DNA from: Promethearchaeia archaeon
GTDB taxonomy: Archaea; Asgardarchaeota; Lokiarchaeia; Sigyniarchaeales; SOKP01
Length of the DNA stretch: 64,000 nt
Direction: 5' to 3'
NCBI GenBank assembly: GCA_046483985.1
Contig: JAWOCD010000057.1
Location: 1-64,000, forward strand
Shown here: piece by piece, positions 38,230-49,672 of the stretch
Layout of the letters: each line of letters starts with the position of its first letter
Numbering within the stretch: position 1 is the stretch's first letter
Notes under the pieces: generated by a model
What the model saw: the letters and a program-made list of their open reading frames with translations, nothing else
Told to the model about the DNA's origin: nothing
Databases searched by the model: none
Translations under genes and position numbers: made by a program

Positions 38230-38832
38230 ATGAGCAAAGAAAAAGATGGGAACGTTTCGCTGGATGATCTTACCGAAGAAGATTTGCCAGAAAAGATACC
38301 CGCAAAATTTTTAAACTCTAGAGTGATTGTCTTTAATCCTTTATATGCCTCCTATTTATATGTGAAAAAAAGATTTTTCGGCGCCCCATTGGGTATTAGC
38401 AAGCCACGATTGGAATATTTCTCAAAACCTTCAGAATTATCATTAATTGAGGCTTATTATTTATTAAAGAGAGAAGAGATCACAATTTATGATGTGAATA
38501 AGGAAAAAAATTTGTCTCCAGCCGAATTTTATGAAACAGCAAAGAAAATCCACGATAAATTTGAGGAAAAATTTATCATTTATGAGGATTTACGGGAAAA
38601 AGGGTATGTACCACGTCCAGGGTTGAAATTCGGAGCGGATTTTGTCTGCTATAAAAAAGGTCCAGGATTAGAACACTCTCCATTCATTGTCCATGTTTTC
38701 CAAAGTAAAAAAAAGATTACTGCAATAGATATGGTCCGAGCTGGTCGATTAGCGACTAGTGTGAGAAAAAAGTTTGTAATCGCCAATCCACAAACTAAAA
38801 CTTACTACTTCTTTGAATGGTTCAAGCCTTAA
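38230..38832 (+). CDS. endA: tRNA-intron endonuclease, catalytic subunit
   Basis: LSLIEAYYL, YEDLREKGY, GLKFGADF..Y..GPG..HS, R.A.SVRK; Tyr-His-Lys triad present. Confidence 0.93.
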   Translation: MSKEKDGNVSLDDLTEEDLPEKIPAKFLNSRVIVFNPLYASYLYVKKRFFGAPLGISKPRLEYFSKPSELSLIEAYYLLKREEITIYDVNKEKNLSPAEFYETAKKIHDKFEEKFIIYEDLREKGYVPRPGLKFGADFVCYKKGPGLEHSPFIVHVFQSKKKITAIDMVRAGRLATSVRKKFVIANPQTKTYYFFEWFKP

Positions 38833-41094: not shown

Positions 41095-41733
41095 TTATCG
41101 TTCTTTTTTTTTTAGTAAATCCTTGGTTTTTTTAAATCTCACAAAATTTTCTCTTTGCTCTTCTTCTAAAATATCTTTAATTTTTTCGATATTTAACTCA
41201 AGGTCGGGAATTAGTACGTTCTTGAGACCATTGATACGGCGATTTACTTTTTCATAATCAAATCCTGCCTTATACATGATATTTTCACTCTCGGCAAAGG
41301 AAATTATCTTAAGCATGAATTGTTTTAACATCTCTATTAAATCGTCTAAATGAGAGGTTGTAGAATCAAAGGAATAGGGAGGTAAATTCTTTTTCTTCCA
41401 TTTAAAATTTATTTTTGGAATGATGATCTCTTTTTCTTTTGAATAATTGACCTCTACTTTCGGACTATAATGGATAGAACTAAATTTGCTAATGAGATTC
41501 AAGGCTCGTTTGCCCATTTTTTCGTAGATTACGTTTAATTTGAGAATTATTTTCCTATAATAATTTAAAAAGTCTTCTCTTCGAGAGTTATATTCTGGCC
41601 ACGTATCTTTAATAAGATTCATAAGAAATTGACGCTTAAATTTTAAAAATTTTTCACCTCTCTGTATAAAATCCAATTTCTTTTTTAATTCAATTAAATT
41701 AGTTTTGGTCGGCTTTACATCTCGAAAACTCAT
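41095..41733 (-). CDS. atpD: A/V-type ATPase subunit D
   Basis: PTKTNL..LK, RRINGL...LIP, LEEEQRENFVR.K. Confidence 0.9.
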   Translation of the reverse strand: MSFRDVKPTKTNLIELKKKLDFIQRGEKFLKFKRQFLMNLIKDTWPEYNSRREDFLNYYRKIILKLNVIYEKMGKRALNLISKFSSIHYSPKVEVNYSKEKEIIIPKINFKWKKKNLPPYSFDSTTSHLDDLIEMLKQFMLKIISFAESENIMYKAGFDYEKVNRRINGLKNVLIPDLELNIEKIKDILEEEQRENFVRFKKTKDLLKKKER

Positions 41734-41734
41734 C

Positions 41735-43123
41735 TTACAACCTCTTTGTATAATACTTTCTAATAAAGTCTTGATGGATCCGATTTAGATGTTCCTTTGG
41801 AACTACAGAAAGAACATTCCATGCAAGATCAAAGGTCTCCGTGAAACTCCTATCCTCATCTTGATCTTGATCCAGAAACTCATTTTCAAAAGCATCGGCA
41901 AAATCCAATAGAAATTTTTGTTCTCTATTCAAGCCTTCTTCTCCGACAATGGAAATTAAATCCCGAACTTCAAGAGCATCGGAGTAGGAAGCTAATATCT
42001 GGGAAGCTATATCGGAATGATCTTCACGGGTCTTTTTTTCTCCTATGGCGTCCTTCATCAACCTTGAAATTGAAGAGATTACCTCAAATGGGGGATAAAT
42101 TCCTTTTTTATCCAAATCTCTATCAAAAACCAGTTGTCCTTCTGTAATATATCTGGTTGTATCTGGAACGGGATGTGAGATATCATCATTCGGCATAGTA
42201 AGTATCGGAATTTGTGTTATTGAGCCTTTTTTATTTTTTATTTTCCCCGTTCTTTCATAAAGGGATGCCAAATCAGAATAGAGATAACCGGGATATCCCT
42301 TTTTACTAGGAATTTCTTCTTTCGCCGCACTTAATTCTCTTAAGGCCTCAGCATAATTTGTGATATCCACTAAAACTACCAGCACATGCATATCTTTTTC
42401 AAAAGCAAAATATTCCGCAGTAGTTAAAGCCACACGTGGTATAATTAATCGTTCCATGATAGGATCATCTGCAAAATTAATAAACGAAATGATATTTTTG
42501 ATGTTTCCGCCTTCTTTAAATTTTTCAGCAAAATATCTTGCTTCATCTTGTATGATCCCAATCCCACAGAAAATAATTAAGAATGGCTCTCCACTTAATA
42601 CTTTTGCTTGAGTCACAATTTGTGCGGCTAATTTATTATGAGGGAGCCCTTGTCCGCTAAAAATGGGAAGATTCTGACCTCTGATGAGCGTAAATAGCCC
42701 GTCGATCACAGATACACCAGTCTGGATAACTACTGACGGATACTCACGACCAAATGGATTTATCGGAGAACTATTAATATCTAATTTATCACCTGTTAAA
42801 ATAGAAGAATCCAACGGTCTTTTTGTTGATATATCAATTGGTTGGCCTAAAGAATTAAAAGTATGTCCCAACATATCTTCAGAAACAGATAGTTTAAAAC
42901 TTTCATTAGTAAAGATAACTTCTGAGTTTTCGGAAGATAGACCGGTGGTATCTTCAAAAACTTCAAGCACAATAATATCCTCATCCATCCTTACCACTTC
43001 TCCGGTTCTAATTTTATCATTCGTTTTTATTTTCACGATTTCTCCATACTTTGGACGATGTTTATTTTTCAAAAACACTAAGGGGCCCACTATTTCTCGA
43101 ATCCTCTTATAGATAACGCTCAT
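41735..43123 (-). CDS. atpB: A/V-type ATPase subunit B
   Basis: LPIFSGQGLPHN, PRVALTTAEY, GYPGYLYSDL, MPNDDISHPVPD, SRLM. Confidence 0.95.
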   Translation of the reverse strand: MSVIYKRIREIVGPLVFLKNKHRPKYGEIVKIKTNDKIRTGEVVRMDEDIIVLEVFEDTTGLSSENSEVIFTNESFKLSVSEDMLGHTFNSLGQPIDISTKRPLDSSILTGDKLDINSSPINPFGREYPSVVIQTGVSVIDGLFTLIRGQNLPIFSGQGLPHNKLAAQIVTQAKVLSGEPFLIIFCGIGIIQDEARYFAEKFKEGGNIKNIISFINFADDPIMERLIIPRVALTTAEYFAFEKDMHVLVVLVDITNYAEALRELSAAKEEIPSKKGYPGYLYSDLASLYERTGKIKNKKGSITQIPILTMPNDDISHPVPDTTRYITEGQLVFDRDLDKKGIYPPFEVISSISRLMKDAIGEKKTREDHSDIASQILASYSDALEVRDLISIVGEEGLNREQKFLLDFADAFENEFLDQDQDEDRSFTETFDLAWNVLSVVPKEHLNRIHQDFIRKYYTKRL

Positions 43124-44976
43124 GACTGTTCACCCCCGTAAATTAATCTTAAATGTTCAAAGCTGCTCAGCATTTCTTTTTTAAGTTCTATCATACGTTC
43201 AAAATCATCATTAGGTATTTCGGATTTCATCCGTAAAAATTTATCTACAATATCCATATTTTTAATATCTTCAATAAGGACCCCCCTATTTAGGATTTCT
43301 TTTGCTCGATTGTAAAATAATAGAATTAATTTAGCCATTGCCATTAATTTTTCAGTAGAAGTAAAATTATCAATATCATCGAAAGCATTTTGGATTAAAA
43401 ATCCCTCTTGAATAATTCTTGCTACAAATAGGGTAAGTTGTTGGTCTTGCGACAAGCTTTGCTCTCCGACTAATTGTGCTACATTTTTTAACTCATCTTC
43501 CTTGGAAAGCAGATCGTTTATCTGAATACGACATTCATACCAATCAAGATCAATTTCTGACCAATCGATATCTTGTTCAAAGTACCAATCAGCAATATTA
43601 TCGGGATAATTCGAATAGGATTTCAGCCAGTTAATTGCCGGATAATGCTTATTATAGGCAAGATTCGCATCCAGAGGCCAAAAGGCTCGTACAAATCTTT
43701 TTGTATTGGCTGTAACGGGTTCACTAAAATCACCCGAAGGAGGAGATATCGAGCCAATAATAGAAAGGGATCCTGTACGTCTTTTATTAGTGACGGTATT
43801 ACCAATGGACATTATAACACCTGCTCTTTCGTAAAATGCCGAAAGTCTCGAAGGAAGATATGCAGGGTAACCTTCTTCGGCAGGCATCTCTTCTAGAAGG
43901 GCAGAAAGTTCACGTAATGCTTCAGCCCATCGAGAGGTACTGTCGGCTAATAAGGTAACATTATAGCCCATGTCACGATAATACTCTGCGATTGTAATAC
44001 CAGAAAATATGCTTGATTCTCTTGCCGAAACGGGCATATTAGGGGTATTGGCAATTAAAACAGTACGTTCCATTAAGGGTCGACCGCCCCAAGGATCAGT
44101 TAGCTTACTGAATTCTTCTAAGATATTAGCCATTTCGTTGCCACGTATTCCACAGCCCACAAAAATAATGATATCAGCATCACTAAATTTGGCAATGGAC
44201 TGCTGAATCACAGTTTTGCCCGTTCCGACCGCTCCAGGGATCGCAACACAACCTCCCTTCGCAACAGGAAATAATAAGTCAATTACACGTATTCCTGTTT
44301 GCAGAGGTACATCTGGATTTAATTTTTTATAAAAGGGTCTGTTTTCCATAATTGGCCATTTTTGGACCATATTATACGATTTTTCGGTGCCCTTTGTTTT
44401 TAAACAATAAATCTCCTCGTCAATGGTGTATTCTCCTTCCTCAGCTATCATGGTTATTTGACCCCCCTCTCCAAAAGGAACCATTATTTTGTGGGAAATT
44501 GACTCGGTCTCCTGAACAACTCCAATTATGTCTCCTTCTGAAATATGATCATTTTCTGATTTTGACGGTGTGAAGTGCCATTTTTTGGTTCGGGAGAGGG
44601 CTGGAACATCTAACCCTCGCTCTAAAAAGCCTACACGTTCGGACCTTTTATATAGATCCTCTAAAGGGCGTTGAATGCCGTCAAATACATTCGATAATAA
44701 GCCTGGAGCTAATTCCATTGATAGTGGTTCATGTAAATTTTTAACTTTCTCCTTTAATTGAAGTTCATTAGTATCTTGAAAACATCGTACTACAACCCGA
44801 TCTTTTAAGATCTGAAGTACTTCACCAATAATATTCTGCTCTTCGATTTTTATAAGATCGTGAAGTCGAATGTCGGTTTCTAAACCTTTTACTTCAATCA
44901 CAGAGCCTTTGACCGCTGAAATATAACCGAAGTTATTTTCTTCTTCTAGTTCACTCGATTTTTCAGATTCGCTCAT
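43120..44976 (-). CDS. atpA: A/V-type ATPase subunit A (catalytic Glu position is Ile)
   Basis: DGIQRPL, GAVGTGKT, GCGIRGNEM, ADSTSRWAEALRE, EEGYPAYL, GDFSEPVT. Confidence 0.95.
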   Translation of the reverse strand: MSESEKSSELEEENNFGYISAVKGSVIEVKGLETDIRLHDLIKIEEQNIIGEVLQILKDRVVVRCFQDTNELQLKEKVKNLHEPLSMELAPGLLSNVFDGIQRPLEDLYKRSERVGFLERGLDVPALSRTKKWHFTPSKSENDHISEGDIIGVVQETESISHKIMVPFGEGGQITMIAEEGEYTIDEEIYCLKTKGTEKSYNMVQKWPIMENRPFYKKLNPDVPLQTGIRVIDLLFPVAKGGCVAIPGAVGTGKTVIQQSIAKFSDADIIIFVGCGIRGNEMANILEEFSKLTDPWGGRPLMERTVLIANTPNMPVSARESSIFSGITIAEYYRDMGYNVTLLADSTSRWAEALRELSALLEEMPAEEGYPAYLPSRLSAFYERAGVIMSIGNTVTNKRRTGSLSIIGSISPPSGDFSEPVTANTKRFVRAFWPLDANLAYNKHYPAINWLKSYSNYPDNIADWYFEQDIDWSEIDLDWYECRIQINDLLSKEDELKNVAQLVGEQSLSQDQQLTLFVARIIQEGFLIQNAFDDIDNFTSTEKLMAMAKLILLFYNRAKEILNRGVLIEDIKNMDIVDKFLRMKSEIPNDDFERMIELKKEMLSSFEHLRLIYGGEQS

Positions 44977-45688
44977 ATTCTTTCAAATATTCTTTCATTT
45001 CTGATTTTTTTTTCTCAGTAAATTGTTCAAATTCTTGTAGAATTTTATCTATTCCCTCATCCGAGACAATTTTAGAAAATTCTCGTTCAATATAATCTGA
45101 ATACTGCTCAAACAAATTATCTATTGTAGAATCATAAGAAATCTGTTCTTCTTCTATATATATCTTAAATCCCCCGGTGAATGCTTTAGATCCTTTCTCA
45201 AGTTGGAAACTATTTTGGATATTTTCTTTCAAAACGTTGATCTTATCCTTAAAATAATCATAATCACGAGCATTTAAAATTAATACAAATTCTTGGGAAG
45301 ATTCAATATTTTCCTCACAAATTGACTGTAAATTTTTTTTGATAAACTCTTGATAACTTTTATAATTACCTTTTATCTTATCTCCGATAAAATCGTGAAT
45401 CCCCCGTTTTAAATCATTTAGAAGAAAGCTTTTCAAATTTAAAAACCCTTCTTTGAATCTTAAACTGACGGAAGAGAATTTCTGGTTGATCGTTGATCGA
45501 TATGTCTCCTTGAAAGATTTTTTTACTTTCTTAGACTCTTGCTCTGCTTTTTCCATATATTTCTTTTTAATTTCTGCTTTTTGAAACAATGTATCTTGTC
45601 TTAATTCTTTAATTTCGTTTTGAACGTCATTTACAAGAGTAAGTCCTAATTTTCCAAATCTTTCTTTTAAATCTTTTTTCTCAGCCAT
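44963..45688 (-). CDS. atpE: A/V-type ATPase subunit E
   Basis: N-terminal coiled coil, LNARD, GGF, YDSTID; operon position. Confidence 0.8.
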   Translation of the reverse strand: MAEKKDLKERFGKLGLTLVNDVQNEIKELRQDTLFQKAEIKKKYMEKAEQESKKVKKSFKETYRSTINQKFSSVSLRFKEGFLNLKSFLLNDLKRGIHDFIGDKIKGNYKSYQEFIKKNLQSICEENIESSQEFVLILNARDYDYFKDKINVLKENIQNSFQLEKGSKAFTGGFKIYIEEEQISYDSTIDNLFEQYSDYIEREFSKIVSDEGIDKILQEFEQFTEKKKSEMKEYLKEYERI

Positions 45689-45699
45689 TGTAATTCTTC

Positions 45700-46023
45700 T
45701 TACTTATTTACTATTTCTCCAACTGATTTTATAATTTTTCTGTGGAATAAGTCATTTTCCTCAACATTTGGTTGTAATAAATTAGGAAGATAAAAAATGA
45801 CTGGTCTTCTGTGGGTAAGTTTATAATTAATCACGGTATCCATAATATCCGAAGGCAAATTAATGGCAATAATAATTAACCCCACCTTAGGATCTTGAGT
45901 TAATTCATTAAATTTCTCTAAGAAGTTTTCAGCTTTTTCTACGATTGACCCTCTTATCCCGATGATTCCCAATAATAATACTATATCATCGTGTCCAATA
46001 ACATGAATATCTAATTCCGTCAT
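45700..46023 (-). CDS. atpF: A/V-type ATPase subunit F
   Basis: IHVIG.DD.V..LG..GI, VGLIII, IIKSVG. Confidence 0.85.
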   Translation of the reverse strand: MTELDIHVIGHDDIVLLLGIIGIRGSIVEKAENFLEKFNELTQDPKVGLIIIAINLPSDIMDTVINYKLTHRRPVIFYLPNLLQPNVEENDLFHRKIIKSVGEIVNK

Positions 46024-46027
46024 TTTA

Positions 46028-46360
46028 TTAAAAACCTAATCCTATTTTTTCTAAAACTTTATTTTGTAATTTTCCTTTCTGATTATTGTATTCCTCTCGT
46101 ATATTATCCAATTCTTCTTGAAATTCTTCCTCAACTTCATCAATTTTAGTATTCAAGTCATTGGTTAATCTCCCTAAAGCACGATTCACGATTTCATTCT
46201 TTTCTTTTGCCAGACTTTCATTTCTTTTTTCTTGATCCCTTCTAAGGGCTTGAATTTCAGATAAAATTTCACTTTTAGTATTTTCCATCAAGTCATTACA
46301 TAAATCTTCTATATAAGTAATCCATTTGAAAATATTCATTATTTTCTCCTCATCTCTCAT
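46028..46360 (-). CDS. Probable peripheral-stalk subunit H/G
   Basis: 110-aa coiled coil inside the ATPase operon. Confidence 0.65.
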   Translation of the reverse strand: MRDEEKIMNIFKWITYIEDLCNDLMENTKSEILSEIQALRRDQEKRNESLAKEKNEIVNRALGRLTNDLNTKIDEVEEEFQEELDNIREEYNNQKGKLQNKVLEKIGLGF

Positions 46361-46364
46361 CTAT

Positions 46365-47450
46365 TTATTCAAAATCCTCATTACTAATTTGATCTTTTAG
46401 AGAATAATATTTGTGGTGAAGAATCTTTACAACCTTAGGCAAGATATAACTCTCTATCTCTCTTTTCTTTTTAAGGATAACTTCTATAATACGCAATATT
46501 GTCAATAGATCTATATCATCAATTTGCACTTGTTTAAACTTATTAAAGTAATAAGAATAATATAATCTTTTAACATAATCTTCAAAATTTTTCTCTTCCA
46601 GTTTTCGCTCGTCGAATAATCCCTTTAATTCTTCTGCTTCTGTATTAAAGAAATTTTTTAACTCTGCGAAAAACGCACTTTGGGAATTTTTATATAGGAG
46701 AGTTTGAATCATATCATTCTCCAAAAATAAATGATGATCCACAATAAATTGTTTTAACAATTCCTTTTCAATTTCGTTTATGATCCCCCTATATATCGTG
46801 TTTAAATTATATATTTCCACAACTAAACTAAGATACGGCTTAATAAGCTTTTTTTCTTTTCTATTTAAATCAACATTAAGATTTGCCATACGATCATAAT
46901 AAATTTTATCCAAAAAAGCCTCCAATACGAATATCTCGTTATTTTTTCTAAAATATAAGATTCCTTCCCTTATCGCTTTTTCATATTGAGTATCTCTCAT
47001 AAATAGCTGGATTTCATCTAATGAGTGTATTTCTACTAACTCATTCATAAACTCTTCTTTATCGAGCAATTCCTCTACATTAATGTTAATATTCTTCCGT
47101 TTCTGTTTTAAAGGTGTGCCTAAGATCGTATCAATGACTGCCTGTTTTATATTTCTGATTTCAAATTTAAGGAGATATCTTTTGAGTAATGATCTCATTG
47201 TATCGGGAGAATAAACTATGATTTGCCCTACAACATTTATATAACTGTTATATAATTCTCCTTCAATTTGTTCGATTGTATATTCATCAATGGAGAAATC
47301 AGGATAAAAAGGGGTAACAAACTCAACAAATTTTTCAATCTCATCTAATTCTTCTAAGCGGTTAAGCGAATCTTGATCCATTATTAATTTCTTTAAAAAC
47401 CCAATCTTAATATACGTATAAGCATAGGATGGTATAATCGCGCTCGTTAA
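46365..47450 (-). CDS. atpC: A/V-type ATPase subunit C (d); frame open upstream of the first ATG (47381)
   Basis: FEIRNIK, LEAFLDKIYY, EIYNL..IYRG; upstream in-frame SYAYTYIKIG matches the subunit C N-terminal motif. Confidence 0.8.
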   Translation of the reverse strand, partial: LTSAIIPSYAYTYIKIGFLKKLIMDQDSLNRLEELDEIEKFVEFVTPFYPDFSIDEYTIEQIEGELYNSYINVVGQIIVYSPDTMRSLLKRYLLKFEIRNIKQAVIDTILGTPLKQKRKNININVEELLDKEEFMNELVEIHSLDEIQLFMRDTQYEKAIREGILYFRKNNEIFVLEAFLDKIYYDRMANLNVDLNRKEKKLIKPYLSLVVEIYNLNTIYRGIINEIEKELLKQFIVDHHLFLENDMIQTLLYKNSQSAFFAELKNFFNTEAEELKGLFDERKLEEKNFEDYVKRLYYSYYFNKFKQVQIDDIDLLTILRIIEVILKKKREIESYILPKVVKILHHKYYSLKDQISNEDFE

Positions 47451-47521
47451 CTATACACCAAATTTAAATTATTAAAAATAATTTTCAAATCAATTTATAC
47501 AATATTCTATTTCTTATGCTT

Positions 47522-47917
47522 TTAAGCCGGAGGTTGTGGAATTTTTGTCCATAATAATATTGCTACAATTAACCCATAAACTGCCAATGCTTCACACAAG
47601 GCAACGATTAAAAAGGCCTTGAAAAAAGACTCTTCTCTCTCTGCCAATGAGGAAATTGCCGCTGTTCCAACAGTTTTCATCGCCCATGCACTTCCCAAAA
47701 CCGCTGCACTCACCGAAATTGCTGCGGAGATGGCTAAGTATGTTGAAGTTGGAGTGTTGTAATAATCAAAAGATCCTTTTTCAGTTTGAGCTGCAACAAA
47801 TGTGGTAATTCCGTTAATGCTGAAAAATACAACGAAGATTAACACGAGTTGAAATCCAGCTAATAAAAAATAAAATTTTCGCTTCTCGTTCATTTCAATT
47901 TCATCAAAAGTTGTCAA
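47522..47917 (-). CDS. atpK: A/V-type ATPase proteolipid subunit K (c) with an extra N-terminal hydrophobic helix
   Basis: One hairpin with ALCEALAVYGL (ion-binding Glu), preceded by a third hydrophobic segment. Confidence 0.9.
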   Translation of the reverse strand: MTTFDEIEMNEKRKFYFLLAGFQLVLIFVVFFSINGITTFVAAQTEKGSFDYYNTPTSTYLAISAAISVSAAVLGSAWAMKTVGTAAISSLAEREESFFKAFLIVALCEALAVYGLIVAILLWTKIPQPPA

Positions 47918-48914: not shown

Positions 48915-49672
48915 ATGGAAAAATTAAAGCAATATAATAAGATTACTGGTTTTAGTAGTATTGCTCGAAGATATTTTGTTAATAATTTTTATGATGGAAA
49001 TAAATGAGGATCTCCCTCATAACCAGAATGTTGACAAGTTTGGGCATACTATTAGGGTTCTTTGTTGTAATCTTAAAAAACCCTGAGGTGGATACCGTTG
49101 AAAGTATTTATGTTATATTCACGGGCTTTGGGACGGCCATTTCTATGTTGATTTCTGGATTGTCTGGATCTTACTTATCCGAGCGGGCGGAAATGCGTAA
49201 GGAGCAAATTGAATTGGAAAAAGCTATGGCATTATATGGTAACATAAAGATGGATGAAAGATCCAATAGAGAGGAAATCAAAAAAGCCATGCTTTTATCA
49301 GAAGAAAAAGAAGATCAAATTAAGAAATGGAGTGAAAAGCTTAAACAGTGGCGAAAGGAAGAAATATCGGAAAAAAAGGAGCAAGAAACTCTCCATGAAA
49401 AAGCAGAAAAATTTACCAGTATAATCGTATCTTCAGTTAACGGATTAAGTCCCTTCTTGGGGGGAATCATTCCCATTATCCCTTTTTTCATCAAACCTTT
49501 CGCTGGTTTTCCGGTATTTATTGGAGCATTCACCATAATCCTGGCTTTTATTGTTTTATTAGGTGTATTTCTCGGAAAAGTTTCTAAAGAATCAATCATC
49601 AAAAATATCTTCCAAATGATGGGTTTTTTCTTCTTGACGGTTCTTCTCACTGTCTTATTCTTAGGAATGTAG
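48915..49672 (+). pseudogene. VIT1/CCC1-family transporter gene interrupted by a 29-nt insertion (48999-49027)
   Basis: ATG 48915 gives MEKLKQYNKITGFSSIARRYFVNNFYDG-NK-stop. A different frame continues MLTSLGILLG...SGLSGSYLSERAE...GGIIPIIPF. Removing 29 nt joins ...NNFYDG-MLT... in frame. Confidence 0.8.

What the first reader, a model, noticed from the sequence alone, without database searches (positions are those of the whole stretch)
48997..49028. 29-nt hairpin insertion precisely interrupting the VIT1/CCC1 gene: intron-, bypass- or footprint-like
Seen: ...TAT GAT GGA [AATAAATGAGGATCTCCCTCATAACCAGA] ATG TTG ACA... Deleting the bracket restores RRYFVNNFYDG-MLT, the VIT1 first-helix motif, and both halves are otherwise intact. 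The insert has a perfect ATGAGG/CCTCAT stem, GAA direct repeats at its borders, an in-frame TGA, and an overlapping ATG (49004) in the downstream frame. The flanks can also pair (UUGUUAAU with GUUGACAA; UGG with CCA). Established: EndA/RtcB splice short introns from archaeal cbf5 mRNA, and both genes are in this window; stop-plus-hairpin inserts are skipped by ribosomes in T4 gene 60. I could not draw a canonical bulge-helix-bulge or a matched landing codon, so a transposon footprint or simple inactivation remains plausible.
Basis: partly seen in the sequence, partly recalled or inferred. Interest (0 to 1): 0.75.

Follow-up and report, generated by a model that had tools for sequence, protein, structure and literature searches.

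The report
tRNA-type mini-intron in Asgard VIT1 gene
The only iron/manganese-transporter (VIT1) gene of this Loki-type Asgard archaeon is broken by a 29-base hairpin shaped like an archaeal tRNA intron. Twelve other Asgard VIT1 sequences carry such an insert at the same base with compensating mutations, so the mRNA is very probably cut and rejoined by the tRNA-splicing enzymes, although no spliced RNA has been seen.

Summary
A 29-nt insert splits RRYFVNNFYDG|MLTSLGILLGFF, which is contiguous in about 130 intron-less homologues.

Best reading (about 0.8): a bulge-helix-bulge (BHB, class HBh') pre-mRNA intron cut by EndA and ligated by RtcB.

- **Recurrence:** I found 12 more distinct inserts (28-33 nt) at the same base in other Asgard VIT1 genes, and one 31-nt insert 19 nt upstream.
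- **Structure:** They differ in sequence but keep a 4-bp exon-intron helix, a 3-nt bulge and an intron hairpin. 89.7% of cells pair, against at most 36.8% in slid registers. Covariation beat all 500 shuffles.
- **Register:** Only one cut register works. It gives DG-M/N-LT in all 13.
- **Canonical count:** Seven of 13 are canonical HBh'. Shuffled introns average 0.05.
- **The window's copy is the weakest:** 3 of 4 central pairs, and an interrupted intron helix.
- **Enzymes:** EndA lies in the window. RtcB does not, but the genome has two copies elsewhere.
- **Other genes:** My own genome scan plus Pfam shows three more genes split the same way.

No RNA data exist. Bypass, frameshift, footprint and artefact are rejected. 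This scan had already noted such introns in other genes of this genome.

The parts
48915..48999 (+). Exon 1 of the VIT1/CCC1 gene: ATG 48915 to GGA 48996-48998, plus A48999, which becomes the first base of the Met codon after splicing. Encodes MEKLKQYNKITGFSSIARRYFVNNFYDG.
   Evidence: 89% identical to residues 3-29 of the full-length homologue P0004. Across the 13 intron-bearing sequences the last 11 codons vary almost only at third positions.
48994..48997 (+). H: the exon side of the BHB central helix (AUGG). It is followed by bulge bases A48998 and A48999, then the 5' cut.
   Evidence: It pairs with 49023-49026 (CCAG): U:A, G:C, G:C plus an A.G mismatch. The same columns are 88.5% paired in 13 sequences, with U:A to C:G compensation.
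49000..49028 (+). 29-nt BHB (HBh'-type) intron: bulge base A49000, intron helix and hairpin, H' CCAG, and A49027 A49028 before the 3' cut. Cuts 1 to 3 bases further left give the same product.
   Evidence: Register fixed by the 13-sequence comparison (shift 0 gives 7 canonical and 12 with at least 3 central pairs; every other shift within +/-7 gives 0 canonical). In-frame TGA at 49005-49007.
49001..49022 (+). Intron helix h': U49001:A49022, a 2x1 internal loop (A49002, A49003 / A49021), then the 6-bp stem 49004-49009 / 49015-49020 with loop AUCUC 49010-49014.
   Evidence: The homologous columns 47-51:68-72 are 90.8% paired, with changes on both sides in 4 of 5 pairs.
49023..49026 (+). H': the intron side of the central helix (CCAG).
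49029..49672 (+). Exon 2 of VIT1: UG of the Met codon, then LTSLGILLGFF... to the stop at 49670-49672.
   Evidence: Pfam VIT1 PF01988, E 3.1e-16, profile positions 29-211. Aligns from MLT with 22 homologues.
38230..38832 (+). EndA, the tRNA-splicing endonuclease catalytic (alpha) subunit, 200 aa: the presumed cutting enzyme.
   Evidence: PF01974 E 9.2e-29 and PF02778 E 6.3e-08. It is the only PF01974 hit in the genome.

Best explanation
The insert is an archaeal bulge-helix-bulge intron of the relaxed HBh' class, sitting inside the coding sequence of the VIT1 pre-mRNA.

**The fold (inferred)**
- The last exon-1 bases AUGG (parts of the Asp-Gly codons) pair with CCAG near the 3' end of the intron.
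- The intron folds into a hairpin that abuts this helix.
- This leaves a 3-nt bulge AA|A at the 5' site. The 3' site lies two bases after the central helix (AA|U).

**Cutting and joining (inferred)**
- The splicing endonuclease EndA cuts between the second and third bulge bases at both sites.
- RtcB joins the exons and probably circularises the 29-mer.
- The joined mRNA reads GAU GGA AUG UUG ACA and encodes a full-length transporter of about 242 aa.

**What is shown**
- The insert and its exact position.
- The conserved fold, with compensating changes.
- The single working cut register.
- Intact exons under selection.
- Presence of the enzymes' genes.

**What is inferred**
- Cleavage and ligation in the cell.

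**Regulation**
Nothing points to a regulatory role. The patchy distribution among close relatives suggests a tolerated passenger.
For: 1. **Exact restoration.** Full-length homologues read ...NNFYDGMLT... with no gap. Exon 1 is 89% identical to P0004 residues 3-29.
2. **Recurrence.** There are 13 distinct inserts of 28-33 nt at the same base in independent Asgard assemblies. All break the frame or carry an in-frame stop.
3. **Structure.**
   - On the 13-sequence alignment A3, the central helix plus intron helix pair in 89.7% of cells, against 14.5-36.8% when slid.
   - Covariation is 0.598 against at most 0.134 when slid, and no shuffle of 500 reached it.
   - Five of 9 pairs change on both sides. 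One of them follows the synonymous GAU/GAC change in the exon: U:A in 6, C:G in 5.
   - RNAalifold predicts the same helices unprompted.
   - The local minimum-energy fold contains the BHB in 9-10 of 13.
4. **Register.**
   - Only the cut GGAA|...NN|N gives BHB geometry. Seven of 13 are canonical HBh' and 12 of 13 have at least 3 central pairs.
   - Shuffled introns average 0.05 canonical (maximum 2 in 2000). Shifts of +/-1 to 7 give 0.
   - This register turns GTG into AUG in L002 and CAC into AAC in L035, matching the residues M or N of intron-less homologues.
5. **No separate start.** Four alleles resume with AAC (Asn) and have no start codon at the junction, so exon 2 cannot be translated on its own there.
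6. **Enzymes.** EndA alpha is in the window and there are two RtcB genes in the genome. Asgard EndA is reported as the (alpha-beta)2 type with the L1 loop, which gives broad specificity (PMC5829648). The cut between the 2nd and 3rd bulge base is the rule used for cbf5 (PMC2738675).
7. **Only copy.** This was the only VIT1 match in a 97%-complete genome with this query.
8. **Same genome, other genes.** EF-2, a UDP-sugar dehydrogenase and an AMP-phosphorylase-family gene are each split by a 30-nt BHB hairpin. In each, exon 2 starts at Pfam profile position 11-14 of a domain.
Against: - No RNA evidence of any kind exists: no RNA run holds the stretch.
- The window's own copy is the least canonical of the 13. 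It has 3 of 4 central pairs (A.G). Only one intron-helix pair abuts the bulge, before a 2x1 loop.
- Its unconstrained fold (-8.5 kcal/mol) adds a 3-bp outer helix that covers the 3' cut.
[quoted passage not shown] The case for this allele therefore rests on its homologues.
- No outer exon-exon helix abuts the motif: 0-1 bp in all 13.
- The EndA beta subunit was not found with the alpha query.
- The 13 sequences are related, so counts over them are not independent.
Confidence: 0.8

Rival explanations
1. In this genome the intron has decayed and is no longer spliced. The gene is a pseudogene, or it makes only an N-terminally truncated 214-aa protein from ATG 49028 (or 222 aa from ATG 49004).
For: - The window's BHB is the weakest of the 13.
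- An ATG stands exactly at the start of exon 2.
- The window's protein sits on a long terminal branch (0.82) in the VIT1 tree.
- Gene callers predict the 214-aa form (P0001).
Against: - Exon 1 is intact, with its start codon and 89% identity to homologues.
- All 47 invariant columns of the 23-sequence alignment are kept in exon 2.
- The same A.G mismatch at the outermost central pair occurs in L001 and L058, and an A.C in L056, so it is a family trait and not decay.
- It is the only VIT1 found in the genome with this query.
- The truncated form would lack half of the conserved first-helix motif.
Confidence: 0.1
2. The gene is split: exon 1 makes a 30-aa peptide and exon 2 a separate protein, and the two assemble without RNA splicing.
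For: In the Met-type alleles, the window included, exon 2 begins with ATG or GTG.
Against: - Four alleles resume with AAC and have no start codon.
- The break lies inside one contiguous conserved helix motif.
- The conserved RNA fold with compensating changes would have no purpose.
Confidence: 0.04
3. Ribosomes skip the insert (T4 gene 60-type bypass), or shift frame across it.
For:
- L001 and L058 happen to have GGA just before the resume codon.
Against: - Eleven of 13 have no matching landing codon.
- The stop is three codons after GGA in the window, not adjacent.
- Insert lengths are 28-33 nt with all three residues modulo 3. Every 30- or 33-nt insert has an in-frame stop, so no single frameshift rule fits.
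- The conserved pairing involves the exon bases and fixes cut sites, not codons.
Confidence: 0.02
4. The insert is an assembly error, a transposon footprint or a miniature mobile DNA element.
For: GAA repeats stand at both borders. No public contig bridging the site was found to confirm it independently.
Against: - Thirteen independent assemblies have an insert at the same base.
- The 29-mer is unique in the genome even with 5 mismatches allowed.
- The border repeat follows from the BHB bulges (AA|N at both cuts).
Confidence: 0.01

Closest known systems
BHB intron in the cbf5 (pseudouridine synthase) pre-mRNA of Desulfurococcales and Sulfolobales (Watanabe 2002; Yokobori 2009, PMC2738675)
   Same: - A short intron inside a coding sequence with an unconventional BHB.
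- Cut sites predicted between the 2nd and 3rd bulge bases.
- A hetero-oligomeric EndA.
- Lineage-specific loss, so that close relatives lack it.
- Gene callers mis-annotate the gene.
   Different: - Different phylum (Asgard, Loki-type), and a membrane-transporter gene rather than an RNA-modification enzyme.
- No cDNA or in vitro proof here.
- A second intron position 19 nt away in one relative.
- At least three other genes of the same genome are split likewise, whereas cbf5 stood alone in its genomes.
BHB intron in the 5' UTR of HVO_1309 mRNA, Haloferax volcanii (PMC7714728)
   Same: An mRNA substrate of the archaeal splicing endonuclease outside tRNA and rRNA.
   Different: That intron (46 nt) lies in the untranslated leader and does not interrupt a reading frame. 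It was shown by circRNA-seq and in vitro cleavage.
Non-canonical-position tRNA introns of Asgard and Thermoproteales archaea (PMC5829648; bioRxiv 10.64898/2026.10.13.758758)
   Same: - Same size range and the same HBh' / hBHBh' motif classes.
- Same presumed enzymes.
- Patchy gain and loss among relatives.
   Different: The host is an mRNA. The exon side of the central helix is made of codons, and the intron tracks their synonymous changes.
T4 gene 60 translational bypass
   Same: A GGA codon, a nearby stop and a hairpin interrupt an otherwise intact gene.
   Different: No matched landing codon in 11 of 13, variable gap length, and pairing that defines cut sites. It works at the RNA level, not at the ribosome.

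Membership tests
Archaeal BHB intron (EndA/RtcB-spliced) | [quoted passage not shown] | tested here: met
   - Family: 4 of 4 pairs in 8 of 13, 3 of 4 in 4, 2 of 4 in 1.
- Columns 40-43:73-76 are 88.5% paired with U:A to C:G compensation.
- The window itself has 3 of 4 (AUGG/CCAG, with an A.G mismatch at the outermost pair), i.e. the 'relaxed' grade.
Archaeal BHB intron (EndA/RtcB-spliced) | Cuts between the 2nd and 3rd base of 3-nt bulges must yield the correct mature sequence | tested here: met
   The cut GGAA|N ... NN|N gives DG-M/N-LT in frame in all 13. No other register within +/-7 gives any canonical motif. The 5' bulge is a closed 3-nt bulge. The 3' site is 2 nt after the central helix but is not closed by an outer helix.
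Archaeal BHB intron (EndA/RtcB-spliced) | Flanking intron helix h' of at least 2 contiguous pairs abutting the motif | tested here: inconclusive
   - Met in 11 of 13, with 2-9 contiguous pairs.
- The window has 1 pair (U49001:A49022), then a 2x1 loop, then 6 bp.
- L060 has 1 pair, then a mismatch, then 8 bp.
Archaeal BHB intron (EndA/RtcB-spliced) | Outer exon-exon helix h (needed for the strict hBHBh' class) | tested here: not met
   0-1 abutting pairs in all 13, so the class is HBh', not hBHBh'. A distant exon-exon helix (alignment columns 3-17:109-121) is 85.8% paired, against at most 59.8% when slid, but it does not abut the motif.
Archaeal BHB intron (EndA/RtcB-spliced) | Splicing endonuclease and RNA ligase encoded by the organism | tested here: met
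   EndA alpha at window 38230-38832. RtcB at C37:24400-25707 and C66:103302-104609. The beta subunit was not found with the alpha query.
Archaeal BHB intron (EndA/RtcB-spliced) | Spliced RNA or excised circular intron observed | not testable with these tools
   No RNA run holds the stretch.
VIT1/CCC1 transporter family (PF01988) | Match to the family profile over the whole domain | tested here: met
   Exon 2: E 3.1e-16, profile positions 29-211 of 214. Exon 1 supplies the missing N-terminal part as judged by 89% identity to P0004 residues 3-29 and by the alignment.
T4 gene 60-type translational bypass | Matched take-off and landing codons with a stop directly after take-off | tested here: not met
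   A GGA landing codon is present in only L001 and L058. In the window the stop is 3 codons after GGA.
Miniature transposable element or footprint | Further copies of the element in the genome | tested here: not met
   The 29-mer is unique in G000 with up to 5 mismatches. The one similar 18-mer (C121) is ordinary coding sequence.

The most novel reading that the evidence does not exclude
The VIT1 insert is one member of a genome-wide class of roughly 30-nt tRNA-type introns in protein-coding genes of Loki-type Asgard archaea. Members seen here are EF-2, a sugar dehydrogenase, AMP phosphorylase and VIT1. These introns are gained, lost and even shifted between neighbouring sites: 19 nt apart in L055, with the same AUCUC loop. 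If so, the closest prokaryotic relatives of eukaryotes would routinely depend on enzymatic mRNA splicing and would show intron turnover in coding genes.
Probability: 0.45. Interest if true: 0.9.

Novelty: new member of a known kind. Interest (0 to 1): 0.78.

Why it matters
**Gap in the literature.** In the papers I could search, splicing of an archaeal coding sequence by the tRNA-splicing enzymes is documented for one gene only, cbf5 in Crenarchaeota, plus one 5'-UTR intron in Haloferax (PMC2738675, PMC7714728). None of those papers reports it for Asgard archaea.

**What this adds.** A transporter gene in the closest prokaryotic relatives of eukaryotes needs such splicing to be read. The same holds for at least three other genes of this genome, among them translation factor EF-2.

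**Consequences**
- Gene callers systematically truncate these genes. Database entries for this family that start at MLT are such truncations.
- Expression of these genes depends on EndA and RtcB.
- The presence/absence polymorphism among near-identical relatives gives a natural system for studying gain and loss of introns in coding genes.

Tried and rejected
- **RNA evidence:** no RNA holder is listed for the stretch.
- **DNA read support:** the one DNA holder's contigs cover 49036-49450 but none bridges the insert, so there is no independent read check.
73.1% paired, the same as shuffles at 72.6%. Not a conserved structure.
- **Abutting outer helix h:** absent.
- **Far exon-exon helix:** better paired in intron-bearing genes (86%) than in intron-less genes (68%). 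The two groups sit in different parts of the tree, so I draw no conclusion.
- **Whole-genome census of such introns:**
  - The raw BHB-plus-open-frame scan gave 43,507 candidates, mostly adjacent genes.
  - After hairpin and codon-usage filters 83 remained. I verified only three of these by Pfam.
  - My filter misses the window's own intron. I therefore give no total.
- **ARAGORN on the genome:** about 30 tRNA lines, with only canonical-position introns reported. This was uninformative for comparing tRNA and mRNA introns.
- **EndA beta subunit:** not found with the alpha protein as query. The EndA gene next to VIT1 in L001 is partly masked.
- **Similar hairpin on C121:** ordinary coding sequence, not an intron.
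- **Chance pattern hits:** L045, L047-L049, L051 and L054 are unrelated NNFYDG proteins.
- **L003:** its truncated database protein is a miscalled start, with no insert.
- **VIT1 tree:** the careful search did not finish, so only the quick tree is used.

Full report
**1. The observation**

The window is contig C32:1-64000 of a 4.06-Mb Asgard genome, 97% complete. Homologues are named Promethearchaeota or Lokiarchaeota.

- An ORF starts at ATG 48915 and reads MEKLKQYNKITGFSSIARRYFVNNFYDG. It then runs into NK and TGA at 49005-49007.
- A second frame is open from 49004 and reads MLTSLGILLGFF... from ATG 49028 to the stop at 49672.
- Exon 2 matches Pfam VIT1 only from profile position 29.
- In 22 homologues the motif RRYFVNNFYDG-MLT-x-LGILLGFF is contiguous.
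- Exon 1 is 89% identical to residues 3-29 of P0004.
- Removing exactly 29 nt therefore restores the protein.

**2. The same site is interrupted elsewhere**

Several database homologues start exactly at MLT, so I fetched their DNA.

- L001 and L002 carry 30- and 29-nt inserts at the same base. L003 does not; its start was simply miscalled.
- A search of 400 genomes of the phylum showed that nearly all orthologues are uninterrupted. G153 (L007) and G156 (L035) are interrupted.
- Pattern scans of two collections added L050, L052 and L053.
- Further look-ups added L056 to L060.
- That makes 13 distinct inserts of 28-33 nt at one site.
- L055 lacks that insert. It has a 31-nt insert 19 nt upstream, between the Val and Asn codons, with a unique junction and the same AUCUC loop as the window and L059.
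- Every insert either shifts the frame or, when 30 or 33 nt long, contains an in-frame stop.

**3. The structure and the cut sites**

The published rule for archaeal BHB introns (PMC2738675; definitions in bioRxiv 10.64898/2026.10.13.758758) has four parts:
- Four exon bases pair with four intron bases upstream of the 3' bulge.
- Each bulge has three bases.
- Cleavage falls between the second and third bulge base.
- Helices flank the motif.

The layout is then:
- H = A[U/C]GG, followed by AA | N.
- An intron hairpin that abuts H'.
- H' = CC[A/G]U or a variant, followed by NN | N.

*Support from the alignment*
- On alignment A3 these nine pairs are formed in 89.7% of cells, against 14.5-36.8% for slid partners.
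- The covariation score is 0.598, against at most 0.134 when slid. No shuffle of 500 reached it.
- Five pairs change on both sides (one search gave the same picture on 8 sequences).
- The exon base at the third position of the Asp codon (U or C) is matched by A or G in the intron (U:A 6, C:G 5, U:G 1). The intron therefore tracks a synonymous exon change.
- RNAalifold predicts the same helices without being told.
- The local minimum-energy fold contains them in 9-10 of 13.

*Formal classification*
- Seven of 13 are canonical HBh', 12 of 13 have at least three central pairs, and none has an abutting outer helix.
- Shuffled introns average 0.05 canonical (maximum 2 in 2000 trials).
- Every shifted register within +/-7 gives none.

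*Product*
- The register yields DG-M-LT or DG-N-LT everywhere.
- In L002 it converts the genomic GTG into AUG. In L035 it converts CAC into AAC.
- Both are residues seen in intron-less homologues.

In window coordinates the intron is 49000-49028. The Met codon is assembled from A48999 and U49029 G49030.

**4. The window's own copy**

It is the weakest of the family.
- The central helix has three pairs plus an A.G mismatch at the outermost position. The same mismatch occurs in L001 and L058, and an A.C in L056.
- Only one pair of the intron helix abuts the bulge, before a 2x1 loop and the 6-bp stem.
- Taken alone this is the 'relaxed' grade. [quoted passage not shown]
- The claim for this allele therefore rests on homology with canonical alleles at the same base, on the intact exons, and on this being the only VIT1 found in the genome with this query.

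**5. Selection on the exons**

- Across the 13 interrupted genes the last 11 codons of exon 1 vary almost only at third positions. The single amino-acid change is V/I.
- Exon 2 keeps all 47 invariant columns of the family alignment.
- Four alleles resume with AAC and have no start codon at the junction, so exon 2 cannot be expressed separately there.

**6. The enzymes**

- EndA alpha (PF02778 plus PF01974) lies at 38230-38832 in the window and is the only catalytic-domain hit in the genome.
- RtcB is not in the window. Two copies lie on C37 and C66.
- Asgard archaea are reported to have the (alpha-beta)2 endonuclease with the L1 loop, which confers broad specificity, including for HBh' (PMC5829648).
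- I did not find the beta subunit with the alpha query.
- In L001 an EndA gene lies two genes from VIT1. In L002 it does not. I treat the proximity as coincidence.

**7. Distribution**

I built a quick maximum-likelihood tree of 142 VIT1 sequences. The careful search did not finish.

- All 14 interrupted genes fall in one clade of 70 (support 95). None falls among the other 72.
- Inside that clade they are interspersed with intron-less genes. Some of those are near-identical sisters: L057 beside L006, and L050 beside P0027.
- Intron sequence types follow the gene tree. The AUUGA...UCAACCAUA type forms one clade with L007, L035 and L052.
- This pattern fits inheritance with repeated precise loss. 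It does not exclude repeated gain.
- The site-B intron of L055 suggests either sliding or a second gain.

**8. Other genes of this genome**

My own scan for BHB geometry plus joined open frames is noisy (43,507 raw candidates, 83 after filtering). Three candidates stand out by hairpin energy. In each, the second exon begins 11-14 positions into a Pfam domain:

| Gene | Intron location | Junction | Pfam domain, first matched position |
|---|---|---|---|
| EF-2 | C115:48042-48071 | AHID\|HGKTT | GTP_EFTU, from 14 |
| UDP-sugar dehydrogenase | C45:48366-48395 | GMGY\|VG | UDPG_MGDP_dh_N, from 11 |
| AMP-phosphorylase-family gene | C32:149428-149457 | KHS\|TGG | Glycos_transf_3, from 11 |

- All three introns are 30 nt, end in AA, and have loops ending in UC.
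- Earlier notes of this scan had named these genes, and two more that I did not check.
- The VIT1 29-mer itself is unique in the genome, so these are not copies of one DNA element.

**9. Rivals**

- **Bypass:** only 2 of 13 have a GGA landing codon, the stop is not adjacent, and lengths vary.
- **Frameshift:** insert lengths cover all three residues modulo 3, and the in-frame inserts contain stops.
- **Pseudogene or footprint:** the exons are intact in 13 lineages.
- **Artefact:** 13 independent assemblies carry an insert.
- **Separate translation:** no start codon in the Asn-type alleles.
- **Remaining doubt:** the window's relaxed copy may be spliced poorly or not at all.

**10. Literature**

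- In the library I could search, coding-sequence BHB introns are documented for cbf5 only (PMC2738675).
- PMC7714728 adds a 5'-UTR intron and states that cbf5 was the only other mRNA case.
- Searches combining Asgard, BHB, splicing endonuclease and protein-coding or mRNA returned no report of such introns in Asgard genes.
- The nearest is a 2026 preprint on Asgard tRNA introns, whose text does not mention mRNA.
- Many subscription papers are not in that library.

**11. Verdict**

- It works like the cbf5 intron and meets the tested defining features of an HBh'-class BHB intron at the family level. For this allele it meets them at the relaxed grade.
- Splicing itself is inferred, not shown.

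Noticed in passing
L055:353-383 (GCA_014728645.1): This VIT1 orthologue lacks the usual insert. It has a 31-nt hairpin insert 19 nt upstream (TTCGTAA|GTCC...GTAC|ATAATTTC), between the Val and Asn codons. It has 3 of 4 central pairs and the same AUCUC loop as the window's intron. This could be intron sliding or a second gain.
   Followed up: partly
G000 C115:48042-48071 (+), locus L061:143-172: The EF-2 gene is split inside its P-loop (AHID|HGKTT) by a 30-nt BHB hairpin with 4 of 4 central pairs and a 9-bp intron helix. Exon 2 matches GTP_EFTU only from profile position 14.
   Followed up: yes
G000 C45:48366-48395 (+), locus L062:167-196: A UDP-glucose/GDP-mannose dehydrogenase gene is split in its NAD-binding loop (GMGY|VG) by a 30-nt BHB hairpin. 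Exon 2 matches the N-terminal domain only from profile position 11.
   Followed up: yes
G000 C32:149428-149457 (-), locus L063:1129-1158, about 85 kb beyond the window: An AMP-phosphorylase / thymidine-phosphorylase-family gene is split at KHS|TGG by a 30-nt BHB hairpin. Exon 2 matches Glycos_transf_3 only from profile position 11.
   Followed up: yes
Database proteins P0001, P0013, P0016, P0045, P0050, P0064, P0073, P0005, P0051, P0100: Public gene calls for interrupted VIT1 genes start at MLT or later (198-215 aa instead of about 240). The intron is therefore silently annotated away as an N-terminal truncation.
   Followed up: yes
alignment A3 columns 3-17 with 109-121 (window about 48957-48971 with 49059-49071): A distant exon-exon helix brackets the intron. 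It is 85.8% paired, against at most 59.8% when slid, and is better paired in intron-bearing genes (86%) than in intron-less genes (68%). It may clamp the motif, or it may reflect codon constraints and phylogeny.
   Followed up: partly
G000 C37:24400-25707 (+) and C66:103302-104609 (-): The genome has two full-length RtcB ligase genes (571 and 554 bits against PF01139).
   Followed up: no
G000 C17:67637-67729: ARAGORN calls a tRNA-SeC (anticodon tca). It also finds only about 30 tRNAs in a 97%-complete genome, which fits many tRNA genes being interrupted at non-canonical positions.
   Followed up: no
window 41095-47917 (-): An A/V-type ATPase operon (catalytic A/B subunit, AC39 subunit and proteolipid c) lies between the EndA gene and the PhoU_div-VIT1 pair. 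VIT1 is followed by BcrAD_BadFG and two HGD-D genes, a neighbourhood that is conserved in the other loci.
   Followed up: partly
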